A stretch of DNA of 64,000 nt from Eledone cirrhosa. Taxonomy: Eukaryota. This document shows positions 21,276 to 45,158 of this stretch, piece after piece. The first letter of the stretch is position 1. Every line of letters begins with the position of its first letter. The notes under the pieces were generated by a model, which did not search any database, had not been told where the DNA came from, and saw only the letters and a program-made list of their open reading frames with translations. The position numbers and the translations under genes are program-made. The DNA is taken from NCBI GenBank assembly GCA_964016885.1, contig OZ024752.1, positions 29,016,001 through 29,080,000 of the forward strand. Direction: 5' to 3'.

Positions 21276-21336
21276 TATTTTATCTGATGAGTGCGTACCG
21301 AAGTTTTGGTACCCTTGAAATATATATAATAGAATA
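21276..21336 (+). ncRNA. Type I hammerhead ribozyme motif
   Basis: tattttat-CTGATGA-stem II-GAAA-tatata-TA-atagaata; 8-bp stem I, palindromic stem III. Confidence 0.8.
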
Positions 21337-21577
21337 AATATGGTTTTATAAATATAGTTTCCATTTATTTAATATCATTGTATATATATAACAATAAGTA
21401 GGATCGAAGTCACTGTTGCAGCATATGTACAATCGTTTTAATATCTAACACATACACACATAACTCTTTAAAATTTACACTCAAGGCTTGTTTAACTTAT
21501 ATAACCAACTGGTTTTATGTTACACAATGCAAAAGAATTATCAGTCATTATACGCAAGATGTGTTTGTGTGTGCATA

Positions 21578-24005
21578 TCTATTATATAAATGTGAAATGG
21601 GCGAAAATTGTCTGATACAGGCAAAAGGGTAGTACCAATGCTCTGATTGTCATGAAAATGTACACCTTAATAGGTGCCGAGGAAGCGACAGGTCTACTTG
21701 GGGTCCTCTAAATTGAAAAATGTGGTCTCCCCAAAAACGGTCTTTTTCTATCGATTTTACCTCTCTATAGTTTCTTAGCTTTACTCTCTCCGTCGCTCTT
21801 TCCTCTCTTTATGATAGATCATTTTCCCCTCTCTATAATTTAACTGCTTTACTCTCTCTGTCGCTCTTCACTCCCTATATGACAACACTGCAGAGAGAGA
21901 TACAAATTAAAGTGTTAGATATTCAGAAAAGGACCATCACACTTTAGTTAACTTTCAGTAACGTGTTATATAACTTTGATCTGTCGTCGCTCACATAGCA
22001 CACATACATACACACGATACTTATATAAGCTGAGCGTCGCGTGATGTGTGTGTGTATGTATCCTTCACACCTCCCTATACTATTTAACCTAAAATACTTT
22101 TATATCCATCTCTTAGTGAAGCATTTTCAACTCATTATACGTAAACAATGACATTAATTTTTCAACTTTTCGATGGCCACATTTGTTCCAGTTACAGGGA
22201 CGCGTGCGTGAAGCGCGGGCTACTCGAGGATGATGCCCACCTGAACGTGGCGTTGACAGAGGCTGCTGAATGTAAGATGCCTCGAGAAATGAGACGTGCT
22301 ATTGTTCTGCGGCATAGGTGAGCCCCTTAAGCTTTGGGAAACGCATAAAGGCAACATGTCAGAGGACATCCTCCGTAGACTACAAGCAGAAGATCCAGCG
22401 GCTGGCTTTGCTTTCAACGACGCGGTGTTCAATGAGGCCCTCATCGACATGGACAACCATCTTAAAGCTCTTGGTGCATCTGATTTCGGTTTGCCACAAC
22501 CTCGAAACACTCACAGTGCTTTAGATGTGGAGTTCATACGTGAGTTAAATTACAACATCGACGATATGACACATCAGGTAGCTCAGGACGAACCCAGACT
22601 TTTGCATGACCAGAGACGGGCATATGACAGAATTCTCTCCAGTGTCAATTCAAATGAGGGACGGCTATTTTTCCTGGATGTTCCTGGCGGAACAGGAAAA
22701 ACTTTTCTCATCAACCTTTTGCTTGCGAAGCTACGAAAAGACAAGCGGATTGCTTTAGCGGTCGCCTCCAGTGGTATTGCGGCGACACTGTTACATGGCG
22801 GTTGTACGGCACACTCCGCATTCAAATTGCCTTTGGACATTGCAAAGAAGGAGAATCCTACATGTAGAATAGATCGTGGCGACCCTAAAGCACATCTTTC
22901 TGAGTGCTGCCTGATCATATGGGTTGAGGTTACCATGAGTAACAAGGCGGCCTTTGAGGCTCTGGATCGAACTCTCAAGGACTTGTGAGAGAGGAGAGTA
23001 AGAAACAGAGAGGCAAAGTGAACGCTGTGTTGGATACACTATGTATATGTGTCAGTGTAGAGACGTGTGTGTGTGTGTGATGTGTGTGGAAATAAGAGGG
23101 GAAGGAAAGCAATAACTATTAACATGTGTGCGTGTGTATGTACGTGCGCGTATGTTTGTGTGTGTGCATGCGTGCAGCGTTCCACAGAAAGTAAAAACTA
23201 TCAACATGTGTGAGCGTGTGTGTAAGTGTACGGGTGCGTGTGTAAGTTTGTGTGCGTCGCTTCTGATTGCCGTGGTAATACAACCTCATCATATGCTGAT
23301 TCTGGCAAAAAGGTTGGATCCTATGGCTGGCCAGGGCTAGAGTAATATTGAAAAACGATTCTATTTTCAAAGTAGAAGGATCCGCTATTTGGAGTTCAAA
23401 CCAGGCCACCTCCCCGAGTTGAACTCTAGGCAATATTGACTGTCTATTACTCAGTGGCTAAGAGACTGGAAATTACTGAATAAATTTTTGTGTCATATAA
23501 TTTGTTGTTTTATTATTATAGCTGACCACTTATAGATAAGCATGTTATCCATATCCATATTAATTTGGCATTTGTATAAACCATTTCAAGTAAATAGGGA
23601 CCTTTTTACATTGACGGACATCTTTTATATTAATTATCTATATCTATATCTACATATAATATAAAAGATTGGAACTTCCATCATCCTTTTGAGAAACGTA
23701 GAACAACCACGTCTCTGCAATGATACACGTTTTACAGCCAGGCAGAAGATGAACCATCTCCTAGAGGTCACTATTCTAGGGGGGGGGGGGGGGAGCACCT
23801 AGAATTGTTCATATACTATGCACAAACGGTACGACGAAGAATCTGGTATATCTGGAAGATTTTTTTTACTGTTTTTTTGTATCACACAGACACCACGGAC
23901 TCGCCTCATACTGTAACCAGTCAAACATCCAATACAGTCATTTTCTCTTTTACCTGTCTTCTCTTATCATCTGTTTACCCGGGCGAAGCTGGGTACGTCA
24001 GCTAG
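21578..24005 (+). mobile_element. Helitron (deleted; possibly two nested elements, second 5' end ~23649)
   Basis: A|TCTATTATATAAA 5' end, Pif1 helicase fragment, 3' GC hairpin plus CTAG|T at 23978-24006. Confidence 0.75.
22196..22988 (+). pseudogene. Helitron RepHel Pif1-like helicase fragment
   Basis: FFLDVPGGTGKTFL, VASSGIAATLL, TAHSAFKLP motifs; truncated and frameshifted. Confidence 0.9.
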
Positions 24006-24309
24006 TTATAACAATATTCAATTTGAATATTGAATGATAAAATCTATAACATGAAATATTCGTACAATAAGTTGGTGACTCTTCGAGCCACGTAAATACA
24101 AGTATAACAGAATACGATAATATAATTTGTATTGTATCTGAAAGATACAATATGACAGACAGAAATGGTGAATGTAAAATGCAAACAGTGTGAACTTATT
24201 ATGTGTGCGTGTGTGCGTATTAGTATATTTTCTTGTCTTAGAAGTAGTAGGATTCAATCAGCCAGGCGGGAATGACATGTGAGAAATTAGTGGACAGACT
24301 GGTTTTTCG

Positions 24310-25460
24310 TGAAGGGATCGTCGGTAAATACTTCCTGTCTCTGCTTCTGCCATGACGTGCTTGGACTGTTTGACGTTATTGGGGTGCAGTTTGTGCCCAA
24401 GGAGTGGCGGCTCCACCACAAGTTTGAAGGCTGTCTCCTCCACAATGGAAACAAGTTCAGGACACTGCCCCTAGCTCATTCAGTCTGCCTGAAGAAAGAT
24501 TACTACAGTGTGAAAGTGCTCTTGGAAGCTCTGCAATACAACCAATACAATTGGGAAATCATTGGAGACTTCAAGATGGTGGCTTTCCTGATTGGACTCC
24601 AAGGAGGCTTTATCAAATTCCAATGCTTGCTCTGCCTTTGGGACAGCAGAGCCACCTCTGATCACTACAAAAGAAAGAACTGGGAGCAGCGAACAGAATT
24701 TGTAGTTGGGACCCGGTATGTCATGTGGGAGTCACTGGTTGATTCCAGGATTGTGCTCATGCCGCCACTGCACATTAAGTTGGGGTTGATGAAGCAGTTT
24801 GTGAAGGCTCTCAACCAAGAATCAGCCGCTTTTAAGTTCTTGAGTTCTTGAGTTCTTCTCCAAGTTATCTGACGCCAAAATCAAAGGTGAAATTTTTGTT
24901 GGACCTCAGATAAAGAAGGTGTTTGAGTCTACTGAGTTCTCCAATAAGCTCAATAGGATTGAGAGAACAGCATAGAACTGTTTCAAGGCAGTTGTTAAGG
25001 GATTCCTGGGCAACTACAGAGCTGAAAACTACCAGAAACTGGTACAGGATCTGATAAAGGGGCTTTTGGCACCATGGGATGCAGGATGTCGCTTAAACTC
25101 CATATGCTGGACGCTCACCTTGAAAAATTCAAGGACAATATGGGCGCCTACTCAGAAGAACAACGCGAACGATTCCACCAAGATGTGAAAGAGATAGAGC
25201 GGAGGTACCAGGGCCACTACAATGAAAACATGATGGGGGATTATATCTGGGGGCTAGTGCGGGAATGCGATCGCAAATCGAGGAAATCCAGTCATTTCTG
25301 ACGTGTATAAGTTGCTTTTATAAGTGTTATTTGTTTTTACTTGTTTGCTTTTAATAAGCTTGTGTAATAAAATAAATATATACTCTGTTGATTTAATTAT
25401 ATGAAATTTAAAAAAAAATGTGTTTTATCAAACTCCGGACCACAAATCCAAACTTCTGAT
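24310..25460 (+). mobile_element. Chapaev3 (CMC superfamily) transposase fragment
   Basis: LQGGFIKFQCLLCLWDSR, PPLHIKLGLMKQFVKAL, GPQIK, KLHMLDAH, SEEQRERFHQD; stops/frameshifts. Confidence 0.8.
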
Positions 25461-25487
25461 TAAATAATAGTGTTTTTTTTTAAAATA

Positions 25488-26428
25488 ATAATTGTTTCTA
25501 CTATTGGCACAAGGCCAGCAATTATCCAGTGCATTACTGGTACTTTTAAAAATAATTGTTTCTACTATTGGCACAAGGCCAGAAAATTACCCAGTACATT
25601 ACTGGTACTTTATTTTATCGACCCCGTAAGGATGAAAGGCAAAGTTAACCTCGGCGGGATTTGAACTCAGAATGGCAAGGGCCGTAACTCTATGCGTCAA
25701 AGCATGGCGTCCGAACCTCTACCGATACTGCCAACCCACCGGTACTTTTAAAAATAATAATGGGATATAACAAACCAGGAAATAACACGTAGAACCGGAT
25801 TCAAAAAATATGTTACACGGTGTAACCTACCAACCGCGTGATGTGGTAGATTACATAACATAAAACTAGTTATATAAACGCTAGACTTTAAACTTCGCAT
25901 ACACAATTGAAAAGACTTGTCATAGAATTAAAATATTGATTTCTAATTTAGGCAAAAGGCCAACAATGTTTTTTTTTGGTGTGTGTAGTACACACTGTGT
26001 ACGTGGGGGGAGGGAGGGAAATCTGATTATATCTACCCTAATACTTGACTGGTATTTTATTTTATGGGCCCCGGAAGGATGAAAGGCAAAGTTAACCTTG
26101 GCGAGATTTAAACTCAGAACAAATACAATTACATTTGGCAGAATCGGTAGATCGTCAGACACCATGCTCTGCAGCATAGAGTTATGGCCCTTTATGTTCT
26201 GAGTTCAAATCCTGCAAAGGTTAGCTTTGCCTTCCATCCTTACGGGGTCGATCGATAAAATAAAGTACCAGTAATGCACTGGGGTAATTGCTGGCTTTGT
26301 GCCCAAAGTAGAAACAATTATTATCCGAGGTTAACTTGCCTTTCATCCTTACGGGGTCGATGAAATAAAGCACCAGTAATGCACTGAGGTAATTGCTGGC
26401 CTTGTGTCAAAAGTAGAAACAATTATTA
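25488..26428. mobile_element. Cluster of family A tRNA-SINEs (two minus-strand copies, one plus-strand copy with duplicated core/tail)
   Basis: Head TGGCAG..TCGG / GAGTTCAAATCC boxes, core gcctttcatccttacggggtcgataaaataaagtaccag, tail ccttgtgcc..aagtagaaacaattatt. Confidence 0.85.
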
Positions 26429-26749
26429 TCCGACGGTCGACCAATTCTGTCAATCCATCATACATTACTCAGTCTATCTATTAAAAAAACGGGATGTCAT
26501 GGCTGTAACGTCTTTGATCATAAGTTTGGTCCTCAGTCAAAGCTTACCTGGGGTTCAACGACAACGTCCCAGAGAAAAATATACAACTGTTTCATTTATC
26601 CTTAAAATCTTGCGTTTTATGACTAGACAGTATATAGGAGTCGATTGACAAGATCACAGACCTCATTTGCTTACCAAGTGGAGTGAAACTCGTCAAATCG
26701 GACCAAGAAAACAATGTTTCTATTGGTCTTTCCATGGCACTTGGCACTT

Positions 26750-27010
26750 CGGTAAGGCCGGATGATGGCGATGCTAAGGCGCTGAAACAACCAAGCACTC
26801 TCACAAACACAACTTGGTAAGGTCGGATGATAGCGAGGCTAAGGCGCTGAAACAACCAAGCACTATCACAAGCATCATTTGACGCCTCGGTAAGGCAAGC
26901 CTCTAACGATAACAAGAACTTCGCTGTCAGCGGCCAAGCTCCACCAAAGGTCTCGAACGCCATACCACTCACGTCCTTTTCTCTAGAAGTAGCGTGAAGG
27001 ATTACATTCA
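26750..27010 (-). mobile_element. C-terminal RLE fragment of CRE-like non-LTR element with ~66 bp tandem duplication
   Basis: AFETFGGAW...AWLFQRLSLAIIR, the typical C-terminus of CRE-clade ORFs. Confidence 0.7.
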
Positions 27011-27872: not shown

Positions 27873-27903
<31 letters not shown>

Positions 27904-28375: not shown

Positions 28376-28446
<71 letters not shown>

Positions 28447-28829: not shown

Positions 28830-31252
28830 TTTTTTTTTTACACAAACTCACAAACTCACAATTTCGGTTTTTACTGCGAACTATTACGCAAACTCACAGC
28901 CTTAGATTAGATTTTGTATTTCTAGCGTTTTTATTTTCCTTCTCTTTGCACGTTCAGTGCTCTTTCTCTCCCACTGTATTTACCTGTTTCTCGCAGACCA
29001 TACTCCTCTTCACGCATTCATAATCTTCTCACCCCTTCTCCACTTTCTAACCCTCCCCTTGCTCACCCCTTACTTCGTCCTCGCGCACAGCCCACCTAGG
29101 TATTCGTTCAACCCGACGGTGGCCCGATGTTTTGACCGAACTATCACCGGCGATTGCCAATTGCTAAAGTTGCCACCACTTTAACCCAGTCCACTTTAGG
29201 TGGCGGTGGCATGCGTCGAACGACCAAGAGACCTGCTTGGTGGAACGACTATGTGACAAACGGTCAGCCTTCGACCTCTTATTCTCCACCAACTGCGGCA
29301 TGCACGAGAGGAGCTAACTTTCCCCCACCTACCCTTCTTCCTCTTCACGGCAGATTCCGAACGAATCCAACCCAGCCAACCACACTACAACTGTTAGCTC
29401 ACCACCCAACCTCCGCTTTAGTCCCACCGTTAGAACCACTGCTGTTTCCTTTACTGACTCACTCCCTCCACCGAATTTCAACGCTGGCCCTCTACTGCCG
29501 GCTGCTGCCAGCCCACCACCTGATTGCGCTCTCTGTGCCTGCACTAGCCGGTACTTAAAGACAATTAAATGTCACCTATGCCACGCATGCTACCACAGAA
29601 GCTGTGTCGGCATCACCAAAGCTCAAGCCAAAAGGCTTCAACACTGGACCTGTAATCGGTGCCACTTCAGCTCCGACGTATTCCGTGAGGATGCCCCACA
29701 CTTTGATGACCAACTCTCTACCGACAACTTTGCCACAACCCCCCAGGGCTTCTCCAAATCAAAGCTCGTTAACCGGATCTCTAAGGGAGCTCGGAATAGC
29801 TTTGCATGTACCCTCTCTAATTTACTGAAAAAAGTTTGCTCGTCCAACAATAGGTCTGAATGGCAGAAATTGTTTTTGTTTCTCCTCATCTCTCTTCACG
29901 TGCACAATGGGAACTCGGGTTCCCTCACGTCCTCTCTCAAGCAGCAGTTCCAGCTGTTTGAGTCCACCCCAACCACGTCTTATCTCAGTTCGACACCGAG
30001 CTCGGTGTCCACCAACAGACAACCCGTAGATCTCAAGCGAGCGGTCAATGCCAAATTCAACGAATTTGACATTAAAGGGGCTGTCCGTCTCCTCTCTTCT
30101 CTATTTTCCCTTGCTCCGTGTAACTCTGATTCTCTTGAGTGTCTGAAAGAGAAGCACCCATTGGCACCCCCCAGATGATCAGCTACACTGGCCTGAACCA
30201 CCAGAATACATGAGACCGGTTTACACCACCGATATCATCAGAAAGGCGATTTCATCCTTCCCCGCTGGGTCAGGCGCGGGAATTGACAGCCTTCGTCCTC
30301 AACACCTCAAGGATGGTATCTCCTTATTGGCCGGTGACGCCGGACTCGAGCTCCTGGAGAGTCTGACTCAGTTTGTGAATCAGTTTTCTTCAGTGAACGT
30401 TCTCCCGTTCATTCGCCCACTGTTCTTCGGTGCGAAGCTATTTGGTCTCACCAAGCCAAACGGGGACCTGCGCCCCATGGCTGCACTTCTCGCCGTCTCA
30501 CTGCAAAGGCATGTTTGTTGTTGGTCTCCGACTCACTGGCGGAGGAATTTTCCCCCATCCAGCTAGGGGTGGGTACCAGGTTGGGATGTGAGGCTGCTGT
30601 CCACGCTGCCAGAGCATTTGCCAACTTGCCCTCCTCATCCCCCAAGGTCATCCTCAAACTTGACCTCAGGAATGCCTTCAACTTCGTCAGCCGCGCCATC
30701 GTCCTCGGCTCAGTAAGAGAGAGGGGCCCGCACTGTTTGCACTGGGCATTGATGACATCACCAAGATGGGGGCTGAGTTGGACCTCAATGTCTGGTACCT
30801 CAGACGAAGTCAGAGAGCTTGGACAGCATAAGTTCGAAGGCCACCTTCGACTCCCTCTTCGTCCAGTCAGATCAGTTTGCAAGGTGCCGCTTACTATCTG
30901 CCAGCGTCAAATACTCAGGCGATTGGGTCGATGCCCTACCTGTGGCCAACGTTGGTGGCCTACTCACCTGGACGAACTTCGTGTCCCCATCGCCCTCAGA
31001 GTGGGAGCCGGCGTCTGCATGGGCTTGAGGTGCCGATGCGGCAAACTCCTCGACTCTACAGGCCTCCATGGTCTTGCCGCCTGAATGCCGGCCGCTTCGC
31101 ACGTCACACGGAGCTAAACCTCATTCTGAAGAGAGCTTTGGCCTGGGAGAATATCCCCTCAGTTTTGGAACCATCTGGGTTGTCCAGAAGTGACGGCAAA
31201 AGACCTGACGGTCTTACCCTGTGCCCCTGGTTGAGAGGCAGGTTATGTGCAT
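28830..31252 (+). mobile_element. CRE-like non-LTR retrotransposon (PHD, RT, restriction-like endonuclease), internally deleted
   Basis: PHD C4HC3 at 29522-29662; SFPAGSGAGIDSLRPQHLK, QLGVG...GCEAAVHAAR, LKLDLRNAFN; RHTELN...[21 protein letters not shown]. Confidence 0.8.
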
Positions 31253-31254
31253 AA

Positions 31255-31450: not shown

Positions 31451-31571
31451 TACATATATATATATATTTTTGTTGTATAGATATTTATCTATACAACAAA
31501 AATACAGTGTTATTGCGATAATGTTATCATTGTGATAATGTTATCATTGTGATAATATTATCATTGCAATA

Positions 31572-31762: not shown

Positions 31763-32439
31763 TCAATAATAATATCAAATAATGATACACCACAAATCAA
31801 ACAAAGGTGAGATTTGTTTATCCGTCATGTACGGAAGCAATACTTAAAGGGATGATATCTCTCTCTCTCTCTCTTTGACCCCCCCCCCCCAAAAAAAAAG
31901 ATGCCTTGATACTTCATATAGCTTGTATTGAGGGACAATATCTTTATCAGTTGTCTACTGGATATATCTGTTAGACATGCAGTGACTAACAACAGAATGT
32001 TTTAAGTCTGCGTGTCTGACATTCATGCGTAGCTTGTGAATAAAAAATTCAAGGGGTATCGCTGGCCGTGGTTATCCCTCCCAAACATCTTTTGTAATGT
32101 ATCGTCTTATTGGCTAATTTCATCGTCTTATTGGCTAATCAACCAACGAGAGTAATTGTTGCTCATTTGCGCATTTTTCAGGTCTAGTCAATAATCTTCG
32201 GCAACTGCCTATATTATAAAGAACTTGTTTTAACGGTTTGTAATTCATTCATTCATTCATTTGCTTATATATATATGTATATATATATATTGTTATACTT
32301 TGGGAGGGTCATGTTGCCAATAAGAAACACACGCACCAGTTGCTTTCACTTCAATTTATTATAATAAATTTATAATAAATTTATAAATTTATAAATTTCT
32401 GGTTGGTTGGTTCCACAACCAGATAGTTGTTTATATATT

Positions 32440-32482
32440 GTCATAGTTCTTTCGTCACACACTCTGTGACCTCTTCAGTGAC
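32440..32482 (-). ncRNA. Minimal hammerhead ribozyme motif (left arm)
   Basis: Reverse complement of 32703-32745. Confidence 0.6.
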
Positions 32483-32702
32483 TGGGGATTCCTTTCTTTG
32501 TTTCAACACACAACACACACACACACACAGAACAAACAACCAACCAGTAACATGTAAATAAACAAATAAATAAATGAACATAAACACACACAGACACCCG
32601 GATGTGGCGCATGCGCAGACTGAGCACACAACACACACACAGAAACAAAATGGCGTAGGACAGAACAAAGGAGAGGCACAGAAACAAAGAAAGGAATCCC
32701 CA

Positions 32703-32745
32703 GTCACTGAAGAGGTCACAGAGTGTGTGACGAAAGAACTATGAC
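32703..32745 (+). ncRNA. Minimal type I hammerhead ribozyme motif (right arm)
   Basis: gtca-CTGAAGA-G-gtcaca/tgtgac-GAAA-gaac-TA-tgac. Confidence 0.65.
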
Positions 32746-33474
32746 AATATATAAACAACTATCTGGTTGTGGAACCAACCAACCAACCAGAAATTTATAA
32801 ATTTATAAATTTATTATAAATTTATTATAATAAATTGAAGTGAAAGCAACTGGTGCGTGTGTTTCTTATTGGCAACATGACCCTCCCAAAGTATAACAAT
32901 ATCAGTTTCAACACACGATTTCAGATAAAGAATCTTGCTAAACAAATTCAGAAACGATATATATATATATAAATATAGCGGTATATATATATATATATAA
33001 ATATAGCGGTTTTAAATTCTGCATCGTTTATGTCTGGTTGTGTTTCATTTTCTCTTTTTCATTTTCTCTTTTTTTCTCTCTATATAACGGCTATTTTCTC
33101 TCTTAACTACATACATCTCTCTTTACATTAATACTAGAGCTAAATAATTAAATAAATAAATAAATAAATGTATCAACCGATACTCAACTTCCTAGTTTCT
33201 CTATCTATCTCTATCTATCTCTTTCTTTTTTCCTCTCTCTATATATATATTTCTCTCTGTTTCTTTACATGAAGTTCTTCTCTTTATCTATCTTTCTATA
33301 TCTCTCTATTTAGTCACATGCATTTCTTCTTTTTCTTCGTTTCTCTTTCTTTCTCTCTTTATCTCTTTCTTTTTACAACTGTCCACAATATTTTTTACTG
33401 CCAAATCAACCTCCCAAATGCAAGGTGATTGAAAGGTATGTCCTATCTATTTATTTATAAGACTGTTTATATTG

Positions 33475-33540
33475 TATTTTGTCTGAAGAAGGCATAACAT
33501 ATTGTTAATGTGATATCCCTGAAATATATATAACGAAATA
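33475..33540 (+). ncRNA. Type I hammerhead ribozyme motif
   Basis: tattttgt-CTGAAGA-stem II-GAAA-tatata-TA-acgaaata; compensatory stem I change versus the 21276 copy. Confidence 0.82.
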
Positions 33541-33670: not shown

Positions 33671-33726
<56 letters not shown>

Positions 33727-33810
33727 GTATATGTATATGTATATATATATGTGTATATGTATATGTATATGTATATATATGTGTATGTATATGTATATAT
33801 ATGTGCCCTA

Positions 33811-35648
33811 GATAGGAGTAACTATAGAGGCATTAAATTAATCGACCAGGTCATGAAGGTCACGGAAAAAGTAATAGCGCAACTAATCAGAGAGAGAATT
33901 GACCTAGATGAAATGCAGTTCGGGTTTGTGTCAGGCAAAAGTACCACAGACGCTCTTTTCATAGTACGACAACTACAGGAGAAGTACCTAGCTAAAGGTA
34001 AACCCCTCTACTTAGCTTTTGTCGACTTGGAGAAAGCCTTCGACAGAGTCCCCCGCTCCATTATCTGGTGGGCTCTTAGAAAACTAGGCGTTGACGAATG
34101 GCTTGTGAGGGCTATACAAGCCATGTATAAAGAAACAGTCAGCAAAGTTAGAATTAACAACGAATATAGTGAAGAGTTTAGCGTAAAAGTTGGCGTCCAT
34201 CAGGGCTCTGTTCTCAGCCCCCTACTATTTATTATTGCCCTTCAGGCTATAACAGAGGAGTTCAAGACAGGCTGCCCATGGGAACTCCTATACGCAGACG
34301 ACCTGACACTCATAGCGGAATCAATGGCCGAGCTAGAGAAGAAATTCCAAACATGGAAGCACGGCCTAGAGTCAAAAGGACTTAAAATTAACCTGGCTAA
34401 GACCAAAGTACTAGTTTGTAGGAAAGAAAACAAGGCGGCGGTCCCTTCTGGGAAATGGTCGTGCTCGGTGTGTAGAAACTCGGTGTGTAGAAACTCCATT
34501 TTATGTCCTAAATGCAAAGTATGGGTGCATAAAAGATGTAGTGGGATCACAGGTAAGCTAACTAAGAACATAGATTTTACATGTGGCCGGTGTTCTGGTG
34601 CAATAAGTAGCAGCAAGTGCCCACAAAATACTAGCTCTTTCAATTGCGCAGAGGGTTCTATAGAAATAGTGGACAGCTTCCGTTACCTGGGCGATAAAAT
34701 CAGCAGTGGGGGAGGGTGCTCTGAGAGTACTGTAGCTAGAGTCAGAACTGGTTGGAAAAAGTTCAGAGAGCTTATACCACTATTAGCTGCTAAAGGGTTC
34801 TCCCTAAAAATGAAAGGCAGGTTGTACGATGCCTGCATACGAACAGCAATGCTGCATGGCAGTGAGACCTGGGCATTGTGTGCAGAGGATATACGCAGAC
34901 TAGAGAGGAACGAAGCTTGCATGCTCCGCTGGATGTGTAACAGTAATATACGTGAACGGCAAAGCATAAACGAACTAAGGAAAAAATTAGAGATAAGAGG
35001 GATCAGATGTTGTTTACTCGAGAGAAGGCTACGTTGGTATGGACACGTGATGCGCATGAAAGTCGATAGCTGTATAACAAAGTGCAGGGCAATAAAGATA
35101 GACGGTAGTCACGGAATAGGCAGACCTAGAAAAACCTGGGACGAGCTGATAAACTCCGACATCACACACTTACACCTCTCCAAGACAATGTCACTGGACC
35201 GAGACCTTTGGCGGTACTCAGTAACAGAGAAGACCCGCCTTACCTAAATATATAGTAAAACCTACTCCAGCCAGTAGGCATCTCTAACAAAATACACCCC
35301 GTCCCACCACCCCCACCCCCACCCCATCCACACCACCCCGTTCTATGTAAAGTTATGTTGGTGCCGCGCCATCGAGGCTGAAACAAATGAGATCGTGTAG
35401 GTGTCACGACAAAAAAACACACAGTCCACGCTGTAATGTGGCCATGTAGGCAACACGGTAAAAAACCTCCCAGACCCACACTGTAAATGTGGTTGGTGTT
35501 AGGAAGGGCATCCAACTGTAGAAAACCTGCCAGACAGTCCTATGCGAGCAAGACAATCACTCTTGCCTCAAGTGGGACTACCCCCGTCCAAACCCATGCA
35601 AGCGTGGAACACGGACGTTAAACGTTGATGATGATGATGATGATGATG
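33811..35648 (+). mobile_element. RTE-clade LINE, 5'-truncated, with intact RT-PHD-C-terminal ORF (to 35247), 3'UTR and (GAT)n tail
   Basis: NYRGIKL, QFGF, FVDLEKAFDRV, GVHQGSVLSPLLF, LYADD, YLG, RLRWYGHV; tail ggacgttaaacgttgatgatgat. Confidence 0.93.
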
Positions 35649-35650
35649 TG

Positions 35651-36805: not shown

Positions 36806-36895
<90 letters not shown>

Positions 36896-36904
36896 ATATA
36901 TAAG

Positions 36905-38290
36905 AACAAAAGATGGTTAAAAGAGTTCCATGTATTTTATTATGCGCATTTCAAAAACAAATATCATCATGCAATAATATTTGTGTTTTCATCAGATAAA
37001 ACAGGAGGACATGATATGAAGGCTAAAAAACACTTGTGGATAGTTCAGTTTTAAATCAACATATGAAAAGTAGTTTTAGATTGATGTGTGATGTTGGGAA
37101 AAATATTTTATTTTGAGGGGGGTGGGGGGTGGAAAGGATGAAAAAGAGGAGGAGATGAGAGTAAAAAGTGGAGAGGGAGGAGTATAATGAGGAAGGATGA
37201 GATAGGAGGAGAGATGGGTGATAGAGAGAGAGAGATAGCTTTTATAACTGAGAAAAATATATTGTTTTACATAGAGAGGTTGAAAAACCGTTGGAAGATA
37301 ATGTATAAATTAAAAGAATTTGAAAATTAACGAAGAGAAAGATAATGTAAAGTTAAGGTTTGTATATTGAAGGGTTTAATAATATGTGCGATGAAAAGAA
37401 AATGTTAATATGTATTAAGAATAATATTTAAGGGTTTAATAATATGTGCGATGGAAAGAAAATGTTGATATGTATTATTAAAAAGAACAACAAGTAATTT
37501 AAGTAAGGATATATTGTGAGATGAGCATGAATAAGTTAGATGAAAGGGAGAAAAAAATAATGAATTGAGGATGAATAATCTAACGTCAAGAATATGTTTA
37601 TGTTTACGAAGGATTTTTACAAGGTGATATAGAGTAAGAATGTATTGTATTATGTAATAATTGTTTCTATGTTAGGCAACAGTGAGAAAAGGTACAGATT
37701 AGAGGTTAGACATTAAAAGAAAAAGACAAGAAAGTGAAGTGATAAATAGGAGTGATATAGAATGAGTAACAAGTATTATATAATGTATAATAAATAACTT
37801 TGAAATAAGGTAGAAAGATGGGTATATTTTTAAAGAAGTATATATATATATATGTGCCTTTGAGAAAAAGATTCTAAATTGATAAAGTTTTGGATATTAG
37901 CTGTATACTTTGTGGAATGTTTTGTGGAATTTATGCAAGCAGATAGAAAACAAGTCAGTGCGTCTATTTATTATAGAATCTAAATTAGATATAATGGTAA
38001 ATTTTTCATTTAGACGGAGATTGCAAATCTTGGATAGAGAACTGTTCAAGTATGGAGACGCAGAAGAAACCTTCTTCCAAAATATGCTATATTTAATATT
38101 TTTGTCTTTCAAGGACCATATGAGTTCTGAGAGAGCCGTGTTGGTTCTTTTAAGTTTGTATTTAAAAGACGAATGATGGTTATAAAGACGAGCTTTAAAG
38201 GAGGTGGAAGTGGAGCCAAAATAGGTGAAGGAATTGGTGTCAGTTATAACTTTACATTTATAAATTAAGTTTTTATCAAGACAATGGTAC
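36905..38290 (-). mobile_element. Penelope-like element 3' part: GIY-YIG endonuclease, pyrimidine-rich 3'UTR, terminal hammerhead
   Basis: ORF 37897-38292 LIYKC...YFGSTSTSFKARLYNH...ICNLRLNEKFTII. Confidence 0.82.
36933..37003 (-). ncRNA. Type I hammerhead ribozyme motif
   Basis: tgttttat-CTGATGA-aaac-acaaatat...atatttgt-tttt-GAAA-tgcgca-TA-ataaaata; stem III ATGCGCAT is a perfect palindrome. Confidence 0.85.
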
Positions 38291-38329
38291 ATGTATATAT
38301 ATATATATATGTATATATATATGTATAAG

Positions 38330-38537
38330 AATATGGAAGTTGAAGGACCCCATAGCCAGTGACAAATTTAAAAGCTTATTACTTGATGCCTTTGACAATA
38401 AGAAAGACGTGCAATATAGAGGAACAGTGGCAATTCTTGAAAGTGAACCTGCTGAAAGCAACGTATGAAATCTGTGGCTGGAGCAGACCTATTGGCATGA
38501 GGAGAATAACTTGGTGGTGGAACAGTAAGGTGGAAGA
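38330..38537 (+). mobile_element. RTE ORF fragment (endonuclease-RT linker)
   Basis: IEEQWQFLKVNLLKATYEICGWSR...TWWWNSKVEE. Confidence 0.7.
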
Positions 38538-40575
38538 GACCTCTTCAGTGACTGGGGATTCTTTTCTTCGTTTTGTGCCTCTCCTTTGTTCTGTCCTACG
38601 CCATCTTGTTTTTGTGTGTGTTGTGTGCTTAGTTTGCGCATGTGTTACATCCGGGTGTCTGTGTGTGTTTTTATTTGTTTATTTATTTGTTTATTTACAT
38701 GTTACTGGTTGGTTGTTTGTTCTATGTGTGTGTGTTTTCATTTTGTCCTTAATTGTAAGTTGTGATGTTGCTATTCCATTCATGTTTTCTATTTCATTTT
38801 GTCCTTAATTGTAAGTTGTCATGTTGCTATTCCATTCATGTTTTCTATTTAATTTTGGAGTTCATTTATGTTTACTGCCTCTGTGATTTGTCTAAACATT
38901 GCGTCTTTTCAGTGTGTAGATTCTATTTTTATTTCTATGTTCTCTAATTTGCCCTTATGTTCTATTTTAGCATGTTGGTAGAGTACAGATGATTCTTTAC
39001 TATCTTGAAGGTCTCGCCAGTGTTCATTTATCCGTTCCCCTACACTACGAGCTGTCTCACCTATGTACACTATATTCTTATCTTTACATTGTCCTTCAGT
39101 ACATCTTATGCTATATATTACATTTCTAGTTTTTACAGTTAATATGGAGGCTTAGTTTACAGATTATGCATTTCTTATCTATACAGGGAGGTCTTTGAAA
39201 AGGGTATGTATTACTAATAAGTGTTTTTATGGCGGTACCTGGTCTTTCTACTATCTTAATATTAAGTTTAAGTTTATCTAGGGCCCTTCTAAATTTGTAA
39301 GCTAATTCACCTCTAGGGGTTGTATTGATGAACATTACACTCTGGTATTTATTGCTATCATACCATGAGTTTATTCTATTAACCTTATTCCTAGTTCTTT
39401 CTATTCTATTCCCAAATTTGCTCCTATACAAGGAGCAGGTCCCATTTGTACCATTATTTACCATTTTTTCCCATTTGGTTCTGGCTCCTCTATATACTCT
39501 GATTTTATCTCTTTGATTGTAACCAGAGAACTGCATACGGTGGATGAAGTGTTGTATGTGTCTCTCTAGTTCTTTGGGGTTGCACATGCGGGACACGTTT
39601 CTCATCACCTGTACCAAATCCGCAATCAGTATGTTGATATTGGTGTGATCCGAAACAGCTGAGTTTCAGTGGATCAGATATTTAGAAGTCATGGGTTTGG
39701 CATAATGGAAATGGAGGATTTGTTTTTTGTTATTAATGGTATCTAACCATAGCTCTGTGTCTAGTACAGATAATTAATGGTTGGGGTGTTTGCTTGGGTA
39801 GTCTATAGTAACTCTAATATTCTGGTGGATGGAGTTAGCTATTTGCTGGATGCTTTCCATGGTGTTTTTCTCTAATTCCTGACTGTTCTCTAGTGGGGGT
39901 GTTTTTACTACGATGTTTATATCATCAACGTAGCGGGAGTACATTATCAGGGTTAAGAGGTTGCTATCTTCTAATTGTTCTTTAAGTTTAAGTTTAATTT
40001 CCCACCATACCATGAATAGGTTAGCTATGTCACCTGCAATGTTAACACCAATGGTTGCTCCCTCCTCTTAGGCATATGTTTTTTCATTAAATTTGAACAT
40101 ATGTTCCTTAAGGGTTAGTTTTATACTGGCCCCCACCGCATGTGCAATCATTTTCTTTAGTTCATTGTGGTTTTCGGGGCTCCATATGGCTCTGGTCCAC
40201 CCGTTCCATCTTTCTGTGTGGGTTTTCTTGGCCATTGAGGTAATGGTAGGCGGTCTGCCTCTTGCTGGTCTTGTAGGGCACAGGTTGCTAAGGTCATACG
40301 TATCTAGATAATCATTACTATAGGTAACTTTAAGTAGGAGTCCCAGCTCACTGGTATCAATCCCACGGAATTCAACGTTGCTCTCACTGATCATTTCTAA
40401 GCATTTCTCCACAGCAAAATCCACATCAATGGATGGATATAGGAGCACAACATCCATACTACCTATTATACAGTCTGTCAGGTCCCTAGATCAGTTATTT
40501 TCGCTGATTCTGCTGAGGAGGTCCTCCGTGCTGTCACATATATCTGGGGACATTTCAATGATGGGGCGTATGATA
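38538..40575 (-). mobile_element. Penelope-like element (RT plus GIY-YIG, degenerate) with 3' repeat broken inside its hammerhead
   Basis: SMDVVLLYPSI, SRYVDDI, VLDTELW, HFHYAKPM, VIYSIRC...YIGETARSVGERINEH; 3' end matches 32505-32717. Confidence 0.9.
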
Positions 40576-41040
40576 ATGTGGCCGTGTAGGTAACGTGGTA
40601 AAAAGTTCCCAGTCCACACTGTAAATGTGGTTGGTGTTAGGAAGGGCATCCAACCATAGAAAACCTGCCAGATAGTTCTATATGAGCAAGACACGGTCAC
40701 CCGACCAACCTTGCCTCAAATTGGGGCAACTCCGTCTAACCCATGCCAGCGTGGAAGATGGACGCTAAACGATGATGATGATGATATATATATATATATA
40801 GTAATAATAATAAATGTGAAGACTAAAATCCAAAGAGGGCTCGATAAGGATAAATATATATCAAATATATATATAAATGTGATTGGTGTTAGGAAGGGCA
40901 TCCAGCTGTAGAAAACCTGCCAGATAGTCCTCTACGATCGAGACACGGTCACCCGACCCATCTTGCCTCAAGTGGGACAATTCCCGTCTAACCCATGCTA
41001 GCGTGGAAGATAGACGTTAAACGATGATGATGATGATGAT
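40575..41040 (+). mobile_element. Two tandem RTE-tail/SINE-B 3' fragments with (GAT)n tails
   Basis: ggtgttaggaagggcatcc...gaaaacctgccaga...ggacg(c/t)taaacgatgatgat twice. Confidence 0.85.
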
Positions 41041-41056
41041 ATGTATGTATATATAT

Positions 41057-41087
<31 letters not shown>

Positions 41088-41308
41088 TATGTATGTATAT
41101 GTATGTATATATATAATATATATATATATAATATATATGTATGTATCTTAACTATAATATGTATAATAATATATATATATTTAATGCATGGAGTTGTTTC
41201 TCTGACAGCCGGGGCCGGCCATTGAAGAAACCACACCACGCATTCAGCTGGCCCTCTGTATCATGAAAAGAAAATCTTTATTGGCGAAATTATTGGATTT
41301 TTCCCAAT

Positions 41309-41536
41309 TTAACCCTCTAGCATTTCAACCAGCTATATCCGGTCAGAATTTTCTCACCTCTTTCTGTTGAAACCGGACATAACTGGTGACTCATACTGAT
41401 GTTAAGGTATTGTTCCCAAAATAGATAATATCAAAATCTCATAGATTCAATATTATGTTAGATATTATGTGAAATAAAGCCTTTACCACTAAAATACAAT
41501 AATATTTATAGAGTAATGTAAATGCTAAAAGGTTAA
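41309..41536. mobile_element. piggyBac-derived MITE (~220 bp)
   Basis: TTAA-CCCT.TAGCATTT...AAATGCTAAAAGG-TTAA. Confidence 0.85.
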
Positions 41537-41558
41537 AGGTTTCTTAGGAACTTTCAAT

Positions 41559-41647
41559 GTTTATTTTAGGTTTTGCCGTCTGAAGAGCTCAGGCTATCTT
41601 AACTGATAGTCCTCAGTGAAATATGTATTACGGAGTTTTAAATAAAC
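41559..41647 (+). ncRNA. Type I hammerhead ribozyme motif with extended stem I
   Basis: ccgt-CTGAAGA(41580)-gct-c-agg-ctatc/gatag-t-cct-c-agt-GAAA-tatgta-TT-acgg; distal gtttattt/aaataaac. Confidence 0.75.
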
Positions 41648-41917
41648 CCGAATCAACTGAATATGGCCTCCCGATCTTTTATTGATATATAATGCTCCAT
41701 CTTGTACCATTTATACAGGTCGTTGAGTGCTTCTTTTTATCTGCTTCACAACCGACAGACCATAATGTGGTCCACCCATCTCTGTTCGGTTAACCCCATA
41801 CTCTAATATATATATATATTATGTTAAGTATTTCCGTAGAAAAGGAAAGGAAAGAAGAGTGCTCTATGTATAGTACAAAACTATTTAATTACATGATAAA
41901 CAACACAATATAATTAT

Positions 41918-41985
41918 ACCATTATCAAAGGTTTCAGGAGACTAGACTATCCTTACAGAAACGTCCAGCTCGTTCATCAGATGAT
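41918..41985 (-). ncRNA. Type I hammerhead ribozyme motif (stem III imperfect)
   Basis: atcat-CTGATGA-acgag-ctggac...gtctag-tctcct-GAAA-cctttga-TA-atggt. Confidence 0.65.
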
Positions 41986-42447
41986 GAAAATATATTATCA
42001 TCATCATTTTGTTTGTTGTTGTGCTCATAATTGTTTTGGCATTAATACACTGGTTGGATGCCCGTCCTAACACCAGCACCACTTTAAAGCATGGACTGGG
42101 TGCTTTTATTTGTGCCACCAGCACTAGAGAGGTTGTCTTACTAAACTCAGGAGCCCTCTCCAGCCCATAGTTTGGCACAGTTTTTAATAGCTGAATGCTA
42201 CTACCATTACCTCCATTTTACAACATGGACCAGGTGCCTTTATTCGTGCCACCAGCACTAGGGAAGTTGTCTTACTGGACTTAGGGGACTGCTCCACCCC
42301 GCACCAATTTATTTGGAGTGGTAGCTCTCCTAGACTTGTTGTCTACACTATGGCTTACAGAGCCTCCATCCGCCCCGTATATATATATATATATATATAT
42401 ATATACGATATATTAACAAATGGAAACTATATTTATAAAACCATATT

Positions 42448-42512
42448 TATTTCATTATACATATTTCAAGGACACCAAGTTAAATTATGGTGTGCTTTCA
42501 TCAGATAAAATA
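42448..42512 (-). ncRNA. Type I hammerhead ribozyme motif (left arm)
   Basis: Reverse complement of 42656-42720. Confidence 0.8.
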
Positions 42513-42655
42513 TAATATAGAGCAGTTTTATAAATAAATATTGACATACCATTAAAGAATGCGACCATTTCTGTTGGAAGCTGCCGGATATGTACAGAAA
42601 TGGTCGCATTCTTTAAGGGTATGTCAATATTTATTTATAAAACTGCTCTATATTA

Positions 42656-42720
42656 TATTTTATCTGATGAAAGCACACCATAATTTAACTTGGTGTCCTT
42701 GAAATATGTATAATGAAATA
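42656..42720 (+). ncRNA. Type I hammerhead ribozyme motif (right arm)
   Basis: tattttat-CTGATGA-aag-c-acacca/tggtgt-c-ctt-GAAA-tatgta-TA-atgaaata. Confidence 0.85.
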
Positions 42721-42794
42721 AATATGGTTTTATAAATATAGTTTCCATTTGTTAATATATCGTATTTTTACTCCAATAATTTGTTGAGTGCTTT

Positions 42795-43147
<353 letters not shown>

Positions 43148-43254
43148 GAAAACTAAAAGTCATGGAACGACTCATCAGAAGGAAACTGATCACTTTTCTA
43201 AAGGAAAATGGTCTCCTAACTGACACCCAGCATGGCTGTTTGTATATGTACATA

Positions 43255-43629
43255 CAGGTTCATAATCTCTTATCTGAAAACCTTACGACCAGACACTTTT
43301 CGGAATGGAAGATTTTTAGAGTATATTTTAAAGTTTTTTAGATAAAACATTACAGGGGGGGGGGGCATGGTGGCTCAGTGGTAGAGTGCTCAGCTTTTTC
43401 GACATTTTCACAGTCTTCAAAGTAAAATAAAAAAAATCAACAAAATTTCCATGAGCTGCAGAGATGACGTGCGCCTGACTGATAGGAGTATTGAGACACA
43501 ACTGTGTGACCTGGGTTGACTGAGTCGTTTCGGGTCGTGTTTGGTGTCAAACATGAGCTTCAGTGTGCAGACGACATCCTGGAAAAAATGTTCAGTTTTC
43601 AGAATTTCGGATAAAAGATTGCGAACCTG
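43255..43629. mobile_element. Tc1/mariner MITE (same family as 20580-20876, opposite orientation)
   Basis: TA-CAGGTTCATAATC...GATTGCGAACCTG-TA. Confidence 0.85.
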
Positions 43630-43689
43630 TATGTGTATATATATAGAGAGTTAGGATTTCGATTAGAATTAGTATAATTACTGTGAACA

Positions 43690-44810
43690 GTCATGTGGTT
43701 ACAGTCAACCTTGCTGGGTGTGTATGGTTCATATGATAGTGAGTTATTTTGGATAATAATCCTTCATCAAACTATATCATTCTGTATTATTCTTGGCTTG
43801 GCAAATCCATTACCCGTCAAAGTATGTGTATAGTTGTTTCCATGTATCCAGGTCACTCCAATGGTTTAGAGTAGGTACCACCTCCCTAATATAATGTGCC
43901 TCTGCTATTCTTAAGTAAACCGTATCTCTTCAAATATTTGTAAACCGTAGCTCTGCAAATATTTTTGTGCTTATTTTTCTTCCACATATTCCTTTGTATT
44001 GAAACTCTACATTCAGAGGCTTTGCTTTTTGAAAATGTTCAGATATTCTATTATATAGTTGGTGTTTCGTGGAATTGATGCAGTTGGCTCTGCACATGCA
44101 GTTTAGCTCAAACACTACATGGTCTTTCAGGCATATTGGTTTTGTATTGTTGTTATTAATTCCTGTAGAAGTGTATTCTCTAACAGGTCATCTCCAAAAG
44201 CAACAATCTTCTTCGATGCTCTGCATGAGGTGTTGTCTCAATGCCTTTCCACACTTTGTTACTTGCACTGGAAGGCCTGTTCTTCTGATACAGTTTCTCA
44301 GACGATTTTCTGTCTGTTCTCATTGCTATGGCAGATCAATGTAGACCCAGGTTTTATCTTTGTTCTCTCGTTACTTTCTCTGCTTCTCTTTCTTCTTGTT
44401 AGTGTTGTTGTGTCTTTCATTGTTGTTGTTGGTCTAAGAGTGGTTGTAGTTATTATTACGATTAAGGGTGGTGGTTTATGTTGGCTTGTGACTGTGACTG
44501 TGTTGGTGTTTGTGTTCTCTTATACACTCAACAACATTTCTTACAAAGTGTTGTTCATAGCCTCTCTTTAACAGCAGTTTCTGAAAGTTATTTAGGACAG
44601 ATCTTGCTTGGGTGACCTTGTCACATCTGTCCGTGCATCGTATGAGTTTGTTCATGGCCACATGGTGTTTTAGGCTTTGCAGATATGCTGAGTCTGGATG
44701 AAGTAAGACATCTCTCTTGGCTTCTTTCTCATAGAAGCTGATGTTAGCCTTTCCTGAAGCTAGGGATAGGGTAAAGTCAAGCAGACTTAGGGAACCATTG
44801 GTTCTTGGGT
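43690..44810 (-). mobile_element. Penelope-like element fragment (RT thumb plus GIY-YIG)
   Basis: GSLSLLDFTL...ISFYEKEAKRDVLLHPDS...LLKRGY; FELNCMCRANCINSTKHQLYNRISEH. Confidence 0.75.
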
Positions 44811-44834
44811 ATATATATATATACATACATATAT

Positions 44835-45055
44835 CATCATCATCATCATTTTACGTCCGCTTTTCCCTGCTTGCAAGGGTGGGACGGGAACTGATTCTGG
44901 CTTGATTTCTACAGCTGGATACCCTTCCTAACACCAACCTCATTTACAGTGAGTGCTGGATGCTTTTTTTACCGTGGCACCTCCACGACCACTTTGCAGT
45001 GGAATGATAGGGACCCCAGTCCTATCATCTCATTTCTACAGCTGAGTAAACTGGA
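44835..45055 (-). mobile_element. SINE family B 3' part
   Basis: Reverse complement of 46690-46965. Confidence 0.85.
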
Positions 45056-45100
45056 GATTTACACCAGCCCAGCTTGGTGTAAATCCTTGAAAGGTTTATT

Positions 45101-45158
45101 ATACTATGATCATTTCAATGACCGGGTTCCATATGAATCCGGTAATATCATCAGGTAT
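45101..45158 (-). ncRNA. Type I hammerhead ribozyme motif
   Basis: atac-CTGATGA-tatt-accgg...ccggt-catt-GAAA-tgatca-TA-gtat; stem III ATGATCAT palindrome; first stem II pair is a mismatch. Confidence 0.7.

What the first reader, a model, noticed from the sequence alone, without database searches (positions are those of the whole stretch)
21276..45158. Dense family of type I hammerhead ribozymes with a conserved pyrimidine mismatch in an otherwise hypervariable stem II
Seen: ten motifs with intact CUGANGA/GAAA/UH cores at 21276(+), 32440(-), 32703(+), 33475(+), 36933(-), 41559(+), 41918(-), 42448(-), 42656(+), 45101(-). Stem II sequences are unrelated between copies yet pair. The fourth position of stem II is a Y.Y mismatch in the AT-rich group: C.C at 21276, 33475, 41559 and 42656/42448, C.U at 36933, U.C at 45101. 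The 41918 copy has C.C at position 2. Established: Penelope-like elements carry short type I hammerheads. Inference: the conserved mismatch is a structural or tertiary-contact feature of a lineage-specific hammerhead subtype that I do not recognise as described.
Basis: partly seen in the sequence, partly recalled or inferred. Interest (0 to 1): 0.82.

Follow-up and report, generated by a model that had tools for sequence, protein, structure and literature searches.

The report
Octopus retrotransposon hammerheads with fixed mismatch
Ten hammerhead-shaped RNA motifs lie at the tail ends of broken Penelope-like jumping genes in an octopus-like genome, and most share an unpaired pyrimidine pair at one fixed spot of an otherwise fast-changing stem, likely a shape mark that helps the element's own protein switch on a predicted self-cutting RNA of a known kind.

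Summary
All ten type I hammerhead motifs are real (9 pass a strict filter against 0.07 in shuffles). They are 8 distinct sequences, the 3' ends of truncated Penelope-like elements (PLEs) of two clades in an octopod genome, not one family. One (two copies) is the published minimal PLE hammerhead. Seven have a long helix II starting R.U or U.U; six of these, in four families, have a pyrimidine-pyrimidine mismatch at pair 4 and a self-complementary 8-mer in helix III (dimer type). Neighbouring pairs covary, even flipping polarity, so the mismatch is probably selected; reads of one family show no listed variant there. One copy lies 900 nt behind a Hydra-clade endonuclease remnant; 7 of 8 copies end near (TA)n. 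The mismatch is absent from 16 long-stem hammerheads of other animals and from 26 published Hydra rows; the published descriptor and Rfam miss these motifs. PLE hammerheads, long variable helix II and dimer cleavage are published; the scan noted ordinary PLE hammerheads in other genomes. No conserved RNA partner was found, so a tertiary contact is unsupported; a protein-read landmark or attenuating hinge is inferred. Cleavage untested. Verdict: new variant of a known kind.

The parts
21276..21336 (+). Type I hammerhead motif, family A; helix II 21291-21316, C21294.C21313 at pair 4, predicted cut after A21328
33475..33540 (+). Type I hammerhead motif, family A; helix II 33490-33520, C33493.C33517 at pair 4, predicted cut after A33532; preceded by about 400 nt of pyrimidine-rich sequence and followed by the family tail
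42656..42720 (+). Type I hammerhead motif, family A; helix II 42671-42700, C42674.C42697 at pair 4, predicted cut after A42712
42448..42512 (-). Inverted duplicate of the 42656 motif (arms 42398-42574 and 42594-42770, 98% complementary)
42766..42793 (+). About 30-nt tail present on one arm only of the inverted pair, followed by (TA)n; related tail after 33475
   Evidence: tail concept from PMC8557442
42634..42736 (+). Extended helix I of family A: 10-bp distal stem 42634-42643 with 42727-42736, beyond a variable internal loop; conserved in all three family A sequences, no listed read variant in either strand
36933..37003 (-). Type I hammerhead motif; helix II 36988-36953, C36985.U36956 at pair 4, predicted cut after 36941; ends 46 nt from (TA)n
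37004..37896 (-). Pyrimidine-rich stretch (58-81% C+T per 100 nt) between the endonuclease remnant and the 36933 motif, read as the element's 3' untranslated region (inferred)
37897..38286 (-). C-terminal GIY-YIG endonuclease remnant of a Hydra-clade PLE (49% identity over 118 aa to P0253, E 4e-26; profile A1 E 3e-30)
41576..41633 (+). Type I hammerhead motif; helix II 41587-41617, C41590.C41614 at pair 4, predicted cut after 41629
45101..45158 (-). Type I hammerhead motif; helix II 45147-45117, U.U at pair 1, U45144.C45120 at pair 4, predicted cut after 45105
41918..41985 (-). Type I hammerhead motif, exception: C.C at pair 2, A-U at pair 4, C.A at 15.2-16.2, no palindrome; probably decayed or another subtype
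32703..32745 (+). Classic minimal PLE hammerhead (extra base after A9, then 5-6 unbroken pairs, C11.1); no pair-4 mismatch
32440..32482 (-). Inverted duplicate of the 32703 motif (arms 32287-32504 and 32681-32902)
38538..38552 (-). Truncated eleventh motif of the 32703 family (core and 4 bases of helix II left); its upstream 200 nt are 91.5% identical to the 32703 flank
38867..40646 (-). Broken RT-endonuclease ORF of a second PLE clade (CX4CXXC linker; 64% identity over 510 aa to an Octopus vulgaris protein), upstream of the truncated motif

Best explanation
These motifs are the 3'-end hammerheads of truncated Penelope-like retrotransposons in an octopod genome, and six of the eight distinct ones form a subtype, likely of the Hydra clade, that is predicted to cut only as a dimer and whose fixed pyrimidine-pyrimidine mismatch at pair 4 of helix II is likely a selected shape landmark read by the element's own protein to help the ribozyme fold. 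Steps: (1) shown: conserved core, three helices, PLE context. (2) Inferred from sequence and known PLE hammerheads: two copies in one tandem transcript pair their self-complementary 8-mers to make one long shared helix III and cut after the UH. (3) Shown by comparison: helix II is a long stable hairpin whose sequence turns over, but three weak pairs plus a Y.Y plus a purine-pyrimidine pair are kept next to the core. (4) Inferred: the narrowed, openable Y.Y spot at a fixed distance from the core is bound by the element-encoded RT-endonuclease, which closes the marginal core-proximal pairs; cutting would thus be tied to the element's own ribonucleoprotein. The copies in this window are 5'-truncated and mostly on opposite strands, so they are likely inert relics.
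For: Motifs 9 vs 0.07 in shuffles. PLE context: Hydra-type endonuclease remnant 900 nt upstream of 36995; inverted truncated arms and a one-sided tail; 7 of 8 long-helix-II copies end within 200 nt of (TA)>=5 against 22% of random local places, the Hydra target; U11.1 in 18 of 26 published Hydra rows (by eye). Dimer: 6 of 6 subtype sequences have a self-complementary 8-mer with four different centres; duplex -2.2 to -10.5 against +4.7 kcal/mol for the monomer hairpin. Selection on pair 4: mismatch in the same column in 4 of 4 families (permutation P 0.006; 0.04 with 41980 as a fifth family), always Y.Y, while pairs 2, 3, 6, 7 flip polarity between families. Reads on family A (28,124 reads of X21, 5,489 contig pieces of X1): variants listed at pairs 1, 2, 5, 6, none at 42673, 42674, 42697, 42698. 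Pair 5 is purine-pyrimidine in 6 of 6. The mismatch costs 3.3-6.7 kcal/mol and lowers P(pair 3) from 0.92-1.0 to 0.21-0.92. A PLE hammerhead that cuts only with its element's protein is published (PMC11167929).
Against: No cleavage, binding or expression data. Only four families from one window; they share ancestry, so the permutation P is not a test on independent events. Transitions turn C.C into C.U or U.C, so staying Y.Y is partly expected from mutation bias. In one search, 23 of 63 variant rows were hidden, among them one C>G, one C>A and one C>T site that I cannot place; reads were selected at >=80% likeness; the 10,077-read subfamily starts at one restriction site that includes the 5' C, so it is not an unbiased count. 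41980 breaks the rule. U11.1 is not absolute (T>C at 42700 in 4,110 of 20,068 reads of one direction). Related Hydra hammerheads do without the mismatch (0 of 16 long-stem ones), so it is not needed in the clade. Only 1 of the 5 long-helix-II families is tied to a Hydra ORF, across a gap (900 nt) longer than the roughly 90-220 nt in L108, L110, L111, L113, L117. No other species confirmed the subtype (X4: 5 short pieces; X15: none).
Confidence: 0.45

Rival explanations
1. Attenuating hinge: the mismatch only uncouples three weak core-proximal pairs from a strong distal hairpin so that the ribozyme is slow and cuts only once helix I and the dimer helix III have formed; no partner reads its shape.
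For: Computed loss of 3.3-6.7 kcal/mol and marginal pairs 1-3; first pair is A-U, G.U or U.U, never G-C; PLE hammerheads are slow in vitro (PMC4209133).
Against: Any mismatch at pairs 3-5 should then do, yet 4 of 4 families have Y.Y at pair 4 with fixed polarity at pair 5; in 33483, 41580 and 42664 pairs 2-3 still form with P 0.82-0.95.
Confidence: 0.25
2. RNA tertiary contact: the Y.Y spot docks on an internal loop of the extended helix I, replacing the loop 1-loop 2 contact of canonical type I hammerheads.
For: All subtype copies can extend helix I beyond a mismatch or 5'-strand bulge; in canonical metazoan motifs the helix II contact begins after 4 bp (PMC4209133), one pair further out than here; family A keeps a 10-bp distal helix I.
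Against: The first helix I interruption lies after 8 bp in family A and 36995 but after 4 bp in 41580 and 45154, and the family A loop varies in letters and length in reads (42644-42655): no conserved partner.
Confidence: 0.15
3. Neutral inheritance: one ancestral mismatch was carried along by descent and kept as Y.Y by transition bias; it has no role.
For: Three of six sequences are one family; C.C, C.U, U.C are one transition apart; 41980 lacks it; other Hydra hammerheads lack it.
Against: One transversion would pair position 4, whereas neighbouring pairs underwent double transversions and the flanks of 41580 and 45154 no longer align with family A; reads show covariation on both sides of pair 4 but none listed at it.
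Confidence: 0.15

Closest known systems
[quoted passage not shown] 2021, PMC8557442, File S2, 26 rows incl. Hydra-1_oBim of Octopus bimaculoides)
   Same: Type I, 3' of a C-terminal GIY-YIG ORF, (TA)n targets, mostly no extra base after A9, frequent U11.1 or U10.1.U11.1 (18 of 26 rows end helix II in U, by eye), helix III longer than in minimal motifs.
   Different: None of the 26 rows has an internal Y.Y at pair 4 (by eye; one row has a 3-bp stem closed by a U-rich loop); their helix II is 3-8 unbroken pairs and helix III mostly starts A-C; here helix II spans 26-38 nt and helix III is an AU(N4)AU palindrome.
[quoted passage not shown]
   Same: Location, long helix II, palindromic helix III implying dimers, inverted nearby copies, extreme within-genome variability. 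The 32703/32440 pair fits their consensus (extra base, G10.1-C11.1 reading possible).
   Different: The seven others lack the extra base and the G10.1-C11.1 pair and exceed the published descriptor (loop 2 at most 10 nt, last core strand at most 9 nt). 1 of their 56 aligned motifs (Clonorchis family 2) shows U.U at pair 4 and one shows C.A there (by eye), not remarked as conserved.
Protein-assisted hammerhead of the Anolis Poseidon element PAc (PMC11167929)
   Same: PLE-borne hammerhead that may need the element's protein; model for the proposed mechanism.
   Different: Other clade; no helix II landmark reported in the passages read; its cleavage was dispensable for insertion in vitro.
Canonical type I hammerheads of non-LTR retrozymes (PMC7229834; Schistosoma type, Rfam hammerhead families)
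   Same: Core, type I topology, dimer-prone helix III, extended helix I.
   Different: No tandem 150-450-nt monomers here, no 4-bp helix II with conserved hexaloop, no Rfam hammerhead match.

Membership tests
Type I hammerhead ribozyme | Core CUGANGA, GAAA, UH with helix I open and helices II, III closed | tested here: met
   10 of 10 cores intact; 9 of 10 pass all helix filters
Type I hammerhead ribozyme | Self-cleavage after H17 | not testable with these tools
   no assay; no RNA raw reads listed
Type I hammerhead ribozyme | Score on Rfam hammerhead covariance models | tested here: not met
   no hammerhead family among 49 matches at E<=1 for the window or 26 matches at E<=10 for 41500-42790; models are built on short helix II, so this lowers 'member of an Rfam family', not 'hammerhead'
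Minimal PLE hammerhead (Cervera 2014) | Lies at the 3' repeat of a PLE | tested here: met
   36995 behind an endonuclease remnant; 32703 family tied by the 38538 remnant to an RT-EN ORF; inverted arms and tail
Minimal PLE hammerhead (Cervera 2014) | Extra base between A9 and 10.1, and G10.1-C11.1 | tested here: not met
   met by 1 of 8 distinct sequences (32707); the other 7 have no extra base and U11.1
Minimal PLE hammerhead (Cervera 2014) | Palindromic helix III / loop 3 | tested here: met
   6 of 7 long-helix-II sequences fully self-complementary over 8 nt (two with G.U); 41980 not; 32707 partly
Hydra-clade PLE | C-terminal GIY-YIG closest to Hydra proteins, with CxxC and CxH in place of CCHH | tested here: met
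   remnant hits the Hydra-type set (E 4e-26) and none of 152 other PLE-type proteins; CxH present, second C of CxxC changed; holds for the 36995 element only
Hydra-clade PLE | RWK and DKT motifs, CxCX5C-like linker | tested here: inconclusive
   region absent from the window; present in the relatives (96, 119, 116 of 120 proteins)
Hydra-clade PLE | Insertion into (TA)n | tested here: met
   7 of 8 long-helix-II copies within 200 nt of (TA)>=5 vs 22% local random; Naiads and others also use (TA)n, so not exclusive
Hydra-clade PLE | ORF linkage for family A, 41580, 41980, 45154 | tested here: inconclusive
   no ORF remnant left upstream; assigned by resemblance only (36995 vs family A 69% over 143 nt)
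Naiad PLE 'half-core' motifs | Motif present in published cephalopod Naiad 3' ends | tested here: not met
   no match of six subtype motifs in a 3' end across the supplement; the three octopus Naiad 3' ends read in part 24 lack it
Non-LTR retrozyme | Head-to-tail tandem monomers each with a hammerhead | tested here: not met
   only inverted pairs and solo copies in the window

The most novel reading that the evidence does not exclude
Octopod Hydra-clade retrotransposons carry an unrecognised, genome-wide hammerhead subtype, invisible to Rfam and to the published descriptors, in which a sequence-independent Y.Y landmark three pairs from the core is the docking site by which the element's reverse transcriptase-endonuclease switches on its own dimeric ribozyme: a natural protein-gated hammerhead with hundreds of covarying natural variants to map the switch.
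Probability: 0.25. Interest if true: 0.7.

Novelty: new variant of a known kind. Interest (0 to 1): 0.45.

Why it matters
Why Penelope-like elements keep hammerheads that barely cut in vitro is open; one is known to need the element's protein, but no RNA feature has been tied to that. A mismatch that survives while the whole stem around it is rewritten gives a one-base handle to test whether helix II is a protein site, a brake or a docking face. It also shows that standard searches undercount hammerheads in cephalopod genomes, where PLEs fill about 7% of the DNA (6.83% in Octopus vulgaris, PMC13282606 supplement). If the mismatch is neutral, this is only another PLE hammerhead family.

Tried and rejected
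No whole genome is held for the window, so the genome-wide count and covariation test could not be run. Rfam: no hammerhead match; microRNA hits are (TA)n artefacts. Pattern scans for the subtype: 33 of 33 viral and 69 of 69 metagenome matches lack paired helices and are chance. Hydra profile in viral contigs: 3 weak loci, no hammerhead. Subtype pattern in five animal-contaminated MAGs: 66 matches, none seen by eye with the subtype anatomy; 30 loci of these were also put through the strict scan. Idea that these long-spacer motifs are the 'missing' Naiad hammerheads: rejected. Retrozyme reading: rejected, no tandem monomers. No RNA holder listed; the possible RNA run X15 gave no piece, which proves nothing. 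Pfam did not name the PLE remnants. Protection from A-to-I editing was considered and set aside: it would not fix the mismatch at one position (reasoning only). Luense, Weinberg and Breaker (PMC5785218, on dimer-cleaving PLE hammerhead variants) is not held, so its consensus figures were not seen; it, the Terminon paper of Arkhipova et al. 2017 (recalled, not read), Dfam/Repbase and the Zenodo library of PMC13282606 may bear on the novelty claim. Figures of all papers were seen only as legends or machine-read text. No covariance model was built, as six sequences in four families would be over-fitted.


Full report
Observation. A relaxed scan adds none. Two pairs are inverted duplicates, leaving eight distinct sequences. 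Since the scan was blind to the mismatch, the group is not cherry-picked: 7 of 8 distinct motifs have a long helix II with U11.1 and no extra base after A9, and 6 of these 7 have the pair-4 mismatch. In pairs 1-7 of those six, only 2 of the other 36 cells are mismatches (both U.U). Rfam has no hammerhead match.

Host and context. The window is AT-rich eukaryotic DNA; the nearest named relative of one of its retroelement proteins is from Octopus vulgaris (60% identity), so the host is read as an octopod. The motifs lie between a DEAD-box helicase exon and an ABC-transporter-like exon (named by eye), in a nest of transposon remnants. Two PLE clades are present. The 32707/32478 pair is tied, through a truncated third copy at 38538-38552 with a 91.5% identical flank, to a broken RT-endonuclease ORF at 38867-40646 with a CX4CXXC linker; it has the extra base and unbroken helix of the published minimal PLE hammerhead. 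The 36995 motif lies 900 nt behind a C-terminal GIY-YIG remnant that matches a set of 120 proteins bearing the RWK, DK[TS] and CxC-linker marks (96, 119 and 116 of 120) and none of 152 other PLE-type proteins; these are the marks of the Hydra clade (PMC8557442 section 11). The intervening DNA is pyrimidine-rich throughout, like the DNA before 33483. Seven of eight long-helix-II copies end within 200 nt of a (TA)>=5 run, against 22% of random local places; the 42504/42664 pair shows the inverted truncated arm and one-sided tail described for PLEs. The other long-helix-II families have lost their ORF, so their Hydra label is by resemblance.

Not one family. 21284, 33483 and 42664 (family A) share 50-52 of 55 bases from GAAA onward but only 11-13 of 20-21 aligned columns in distal helix II, 5-8 of 10 in proximal helix II and 20-25 of 31-35 in the 5' flank. 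So helix II is not more variable than the 5' flank; it is the 3' end that is held. 36995 is distantly like family A (69% over 143 nt); 41580 and 45154 show no flank similarity. That gives four families with the mismatch and one (41980) without.

Is the mismatch selected? Across the four families pairs 2, 3, 6 and 7 include polarity flips (for example G-C, A-U and U-A at pair 3), each needing two transversions, while one transversion would pair position 4. A permutation of mismatch positions gives P 0.006 for four families and 0.04 with 41980; the families are related, so this is descriptive. Reads laid on family A (28,124 reads of a same-species reduced-representation run, 5,489 contig pieces of a same-species run) list changes at pair 1 (42700), pair 2 (42672 A>G with 42699 T>C), pair 5 (42675 A>G in 1,622 of 3,032 reads), pair 6 (42676 C>T with 42695 G>A), helix I (42715 G>A, wobble to Watson-Crick) and the helix III palindrome (42708 G>A), and none at 42673, 42674, 42697, 42698 or the core. 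Loose ends show two abundant subfamilies (5,376 and 10,077 reads) that, read by eye with the majority letters, both keep C.C at pair 4. Against this: 23 of 63 variant rows were hidden, including one C>G, one C>A and one C>T site; reads had to be 80% like the reference; the larger subfamily starts at one restriction site that contains the 5' C; and transitions alone keep Y.Y as Y.Y. Another species' contigs gave only 5 short pieces. I put selection at about 85%.

Is it clade-wide or known? Eighteen contigs of animal DNA inside bacterial MAGs carry Hydra-type ORFs. In these and 82 further loci from the same five assemblies a strict scan finds 26 distinct hammerheads; 0 of the 16 with room for six or more pairs have Y.Y at pair 4. 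One further motif that this filter missed (L108) has a 2x2 U.U loop at pairs 5-6, so internal pyrimidine mismatches do occur elsewhere in the clade. The 26 published Hydra rows, one from Octopus bimaculoides, show none (supplement table read whole, by eye). Of 56 aligned PLE motifs in Cervera and De la Pena, one has U.U and one C.A at pair 4 (by eye); their descriptor caps loop 2 at 10 nt and the last core strand at 9 nt, so it cannot return this subtype, which also biases those tables against it. Of that paper I read parts 1-2 of 4 of the text and the whole supplement text: it reports long helix II, palindromic helix III, dimer cleavage, low activity and extreme within-genome variability. Passages only were read of PMC8557442 (plus section 11 and supplement parts 1, 2, 24), PMC3088659 (U10.1.U11.1 known), PMC6765202, PMC7229834, PMC11167929, PMC6155905 and PMC13282606 (no mention of ribozymes), and part 1 of 5 of bioRxiv 10.64898/2026.07.22.740005. 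Searches gave no paper on a conserved helix II pyrimidine mismatch or on octopus hammerheads; most subscription papers, and PMC5785218, are outside the library.

How it most likely works. Helix III as a monomer is unstable (+4.7 kcal/mol) while its 8-mer is self-complementary in 6 of 6 subtype sequences with four different centres (duplex -2.2 to -10.5), so cutting is predicted to need two copies in one tandem transcript, as for other PLE hammerheads. Helix II is a strong distal hairpin joined to the core by three weak pairs and the Y.Y; pairing position 4 in silico would gain 3.3-6.7 kcal/mol and fix pair 3. The fixed position, the restriction to Y.Y and the fixed purine-pyrimidine polarity of pair 5 point to shape rather than mere weakness. 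An RNA partner is not evident: helix I can extend, but its first interruption sits after 8 bp in two families and after 4 bp in two, and the family A loop varies in letters and length. Since one PLE hammerhead cuts only in the presence of its element's protein, I commit to a landmark read by the element's protein (0.45), ahead of a plain brake (0.25), an RNA tertiary contact (0.15) and neutrality (0.15). The identity as PLE-borne hammerhead motifs is about 0.95; every functional step is inferred.

Verdict. New variant of a known kind; interest 0.45.

Noticed in passing
window 38538-38552 (-): Truncated eleventh hammerhead of the 32703 family, cut four bases into helix II by another insertion; it links that family to the RT-endonuclease ORF at 38867-40646.
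   Followed up: yes
window 43735-43775 (-): Decayed minimal-hammerhead-like stretch (two core changes) behind weak PLE fragments at 43864-44739; seen by eye, not returned by the relaxed scan.
   Followed up: partly
window 41576-41633 and 42656-42720 (+): Two different families on the same strand, 1.1 kb apart, carry the same helix III 8-mer and could in principle form a mixed double hammerhead in a read-through transcript.
   Followed up: no
window 42701-42755 (+) and family A: The 55 nt from GAAA onward are 91-95% identical among family A copies while everything 5' is 50-80% identical: the 3' end (helix I 3' strand and start of the tail) is strongly held or swapped between subfamilies.
   Followed up: partly
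window 41806-41822: The 3' ends of the 41580(+) and 41980(-) elements converge on one (TA)n run.
   Followed up: no
L106-L123; G001-G005: Eighteen contigs in bacterial genome bins carry animal Hydra-clade retrotransposon ORFs and hammerheads, that is host DNA in the bins; one motif in G001 equals the published Acropora Hydra-2 hammerhead.
   Followed up: partly
L108:4267-4320 (+): Hydra-type hammerhead with U.U at pair 1 and a 2x2 U.U internal loop at pairs 5-6 of a long helix II, in both terminal repeats.
   Followed up: no
window 33802-35247 (+), 47518-47970 (+), 29318-31254 (+): RTE-like reverse transcriptase remnants with an inserted PHD-like finger, and a separate remnant with an N-terminal PHD finger; also a PIF1 helicase fragment at 22293-22988.
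   Followed up: no
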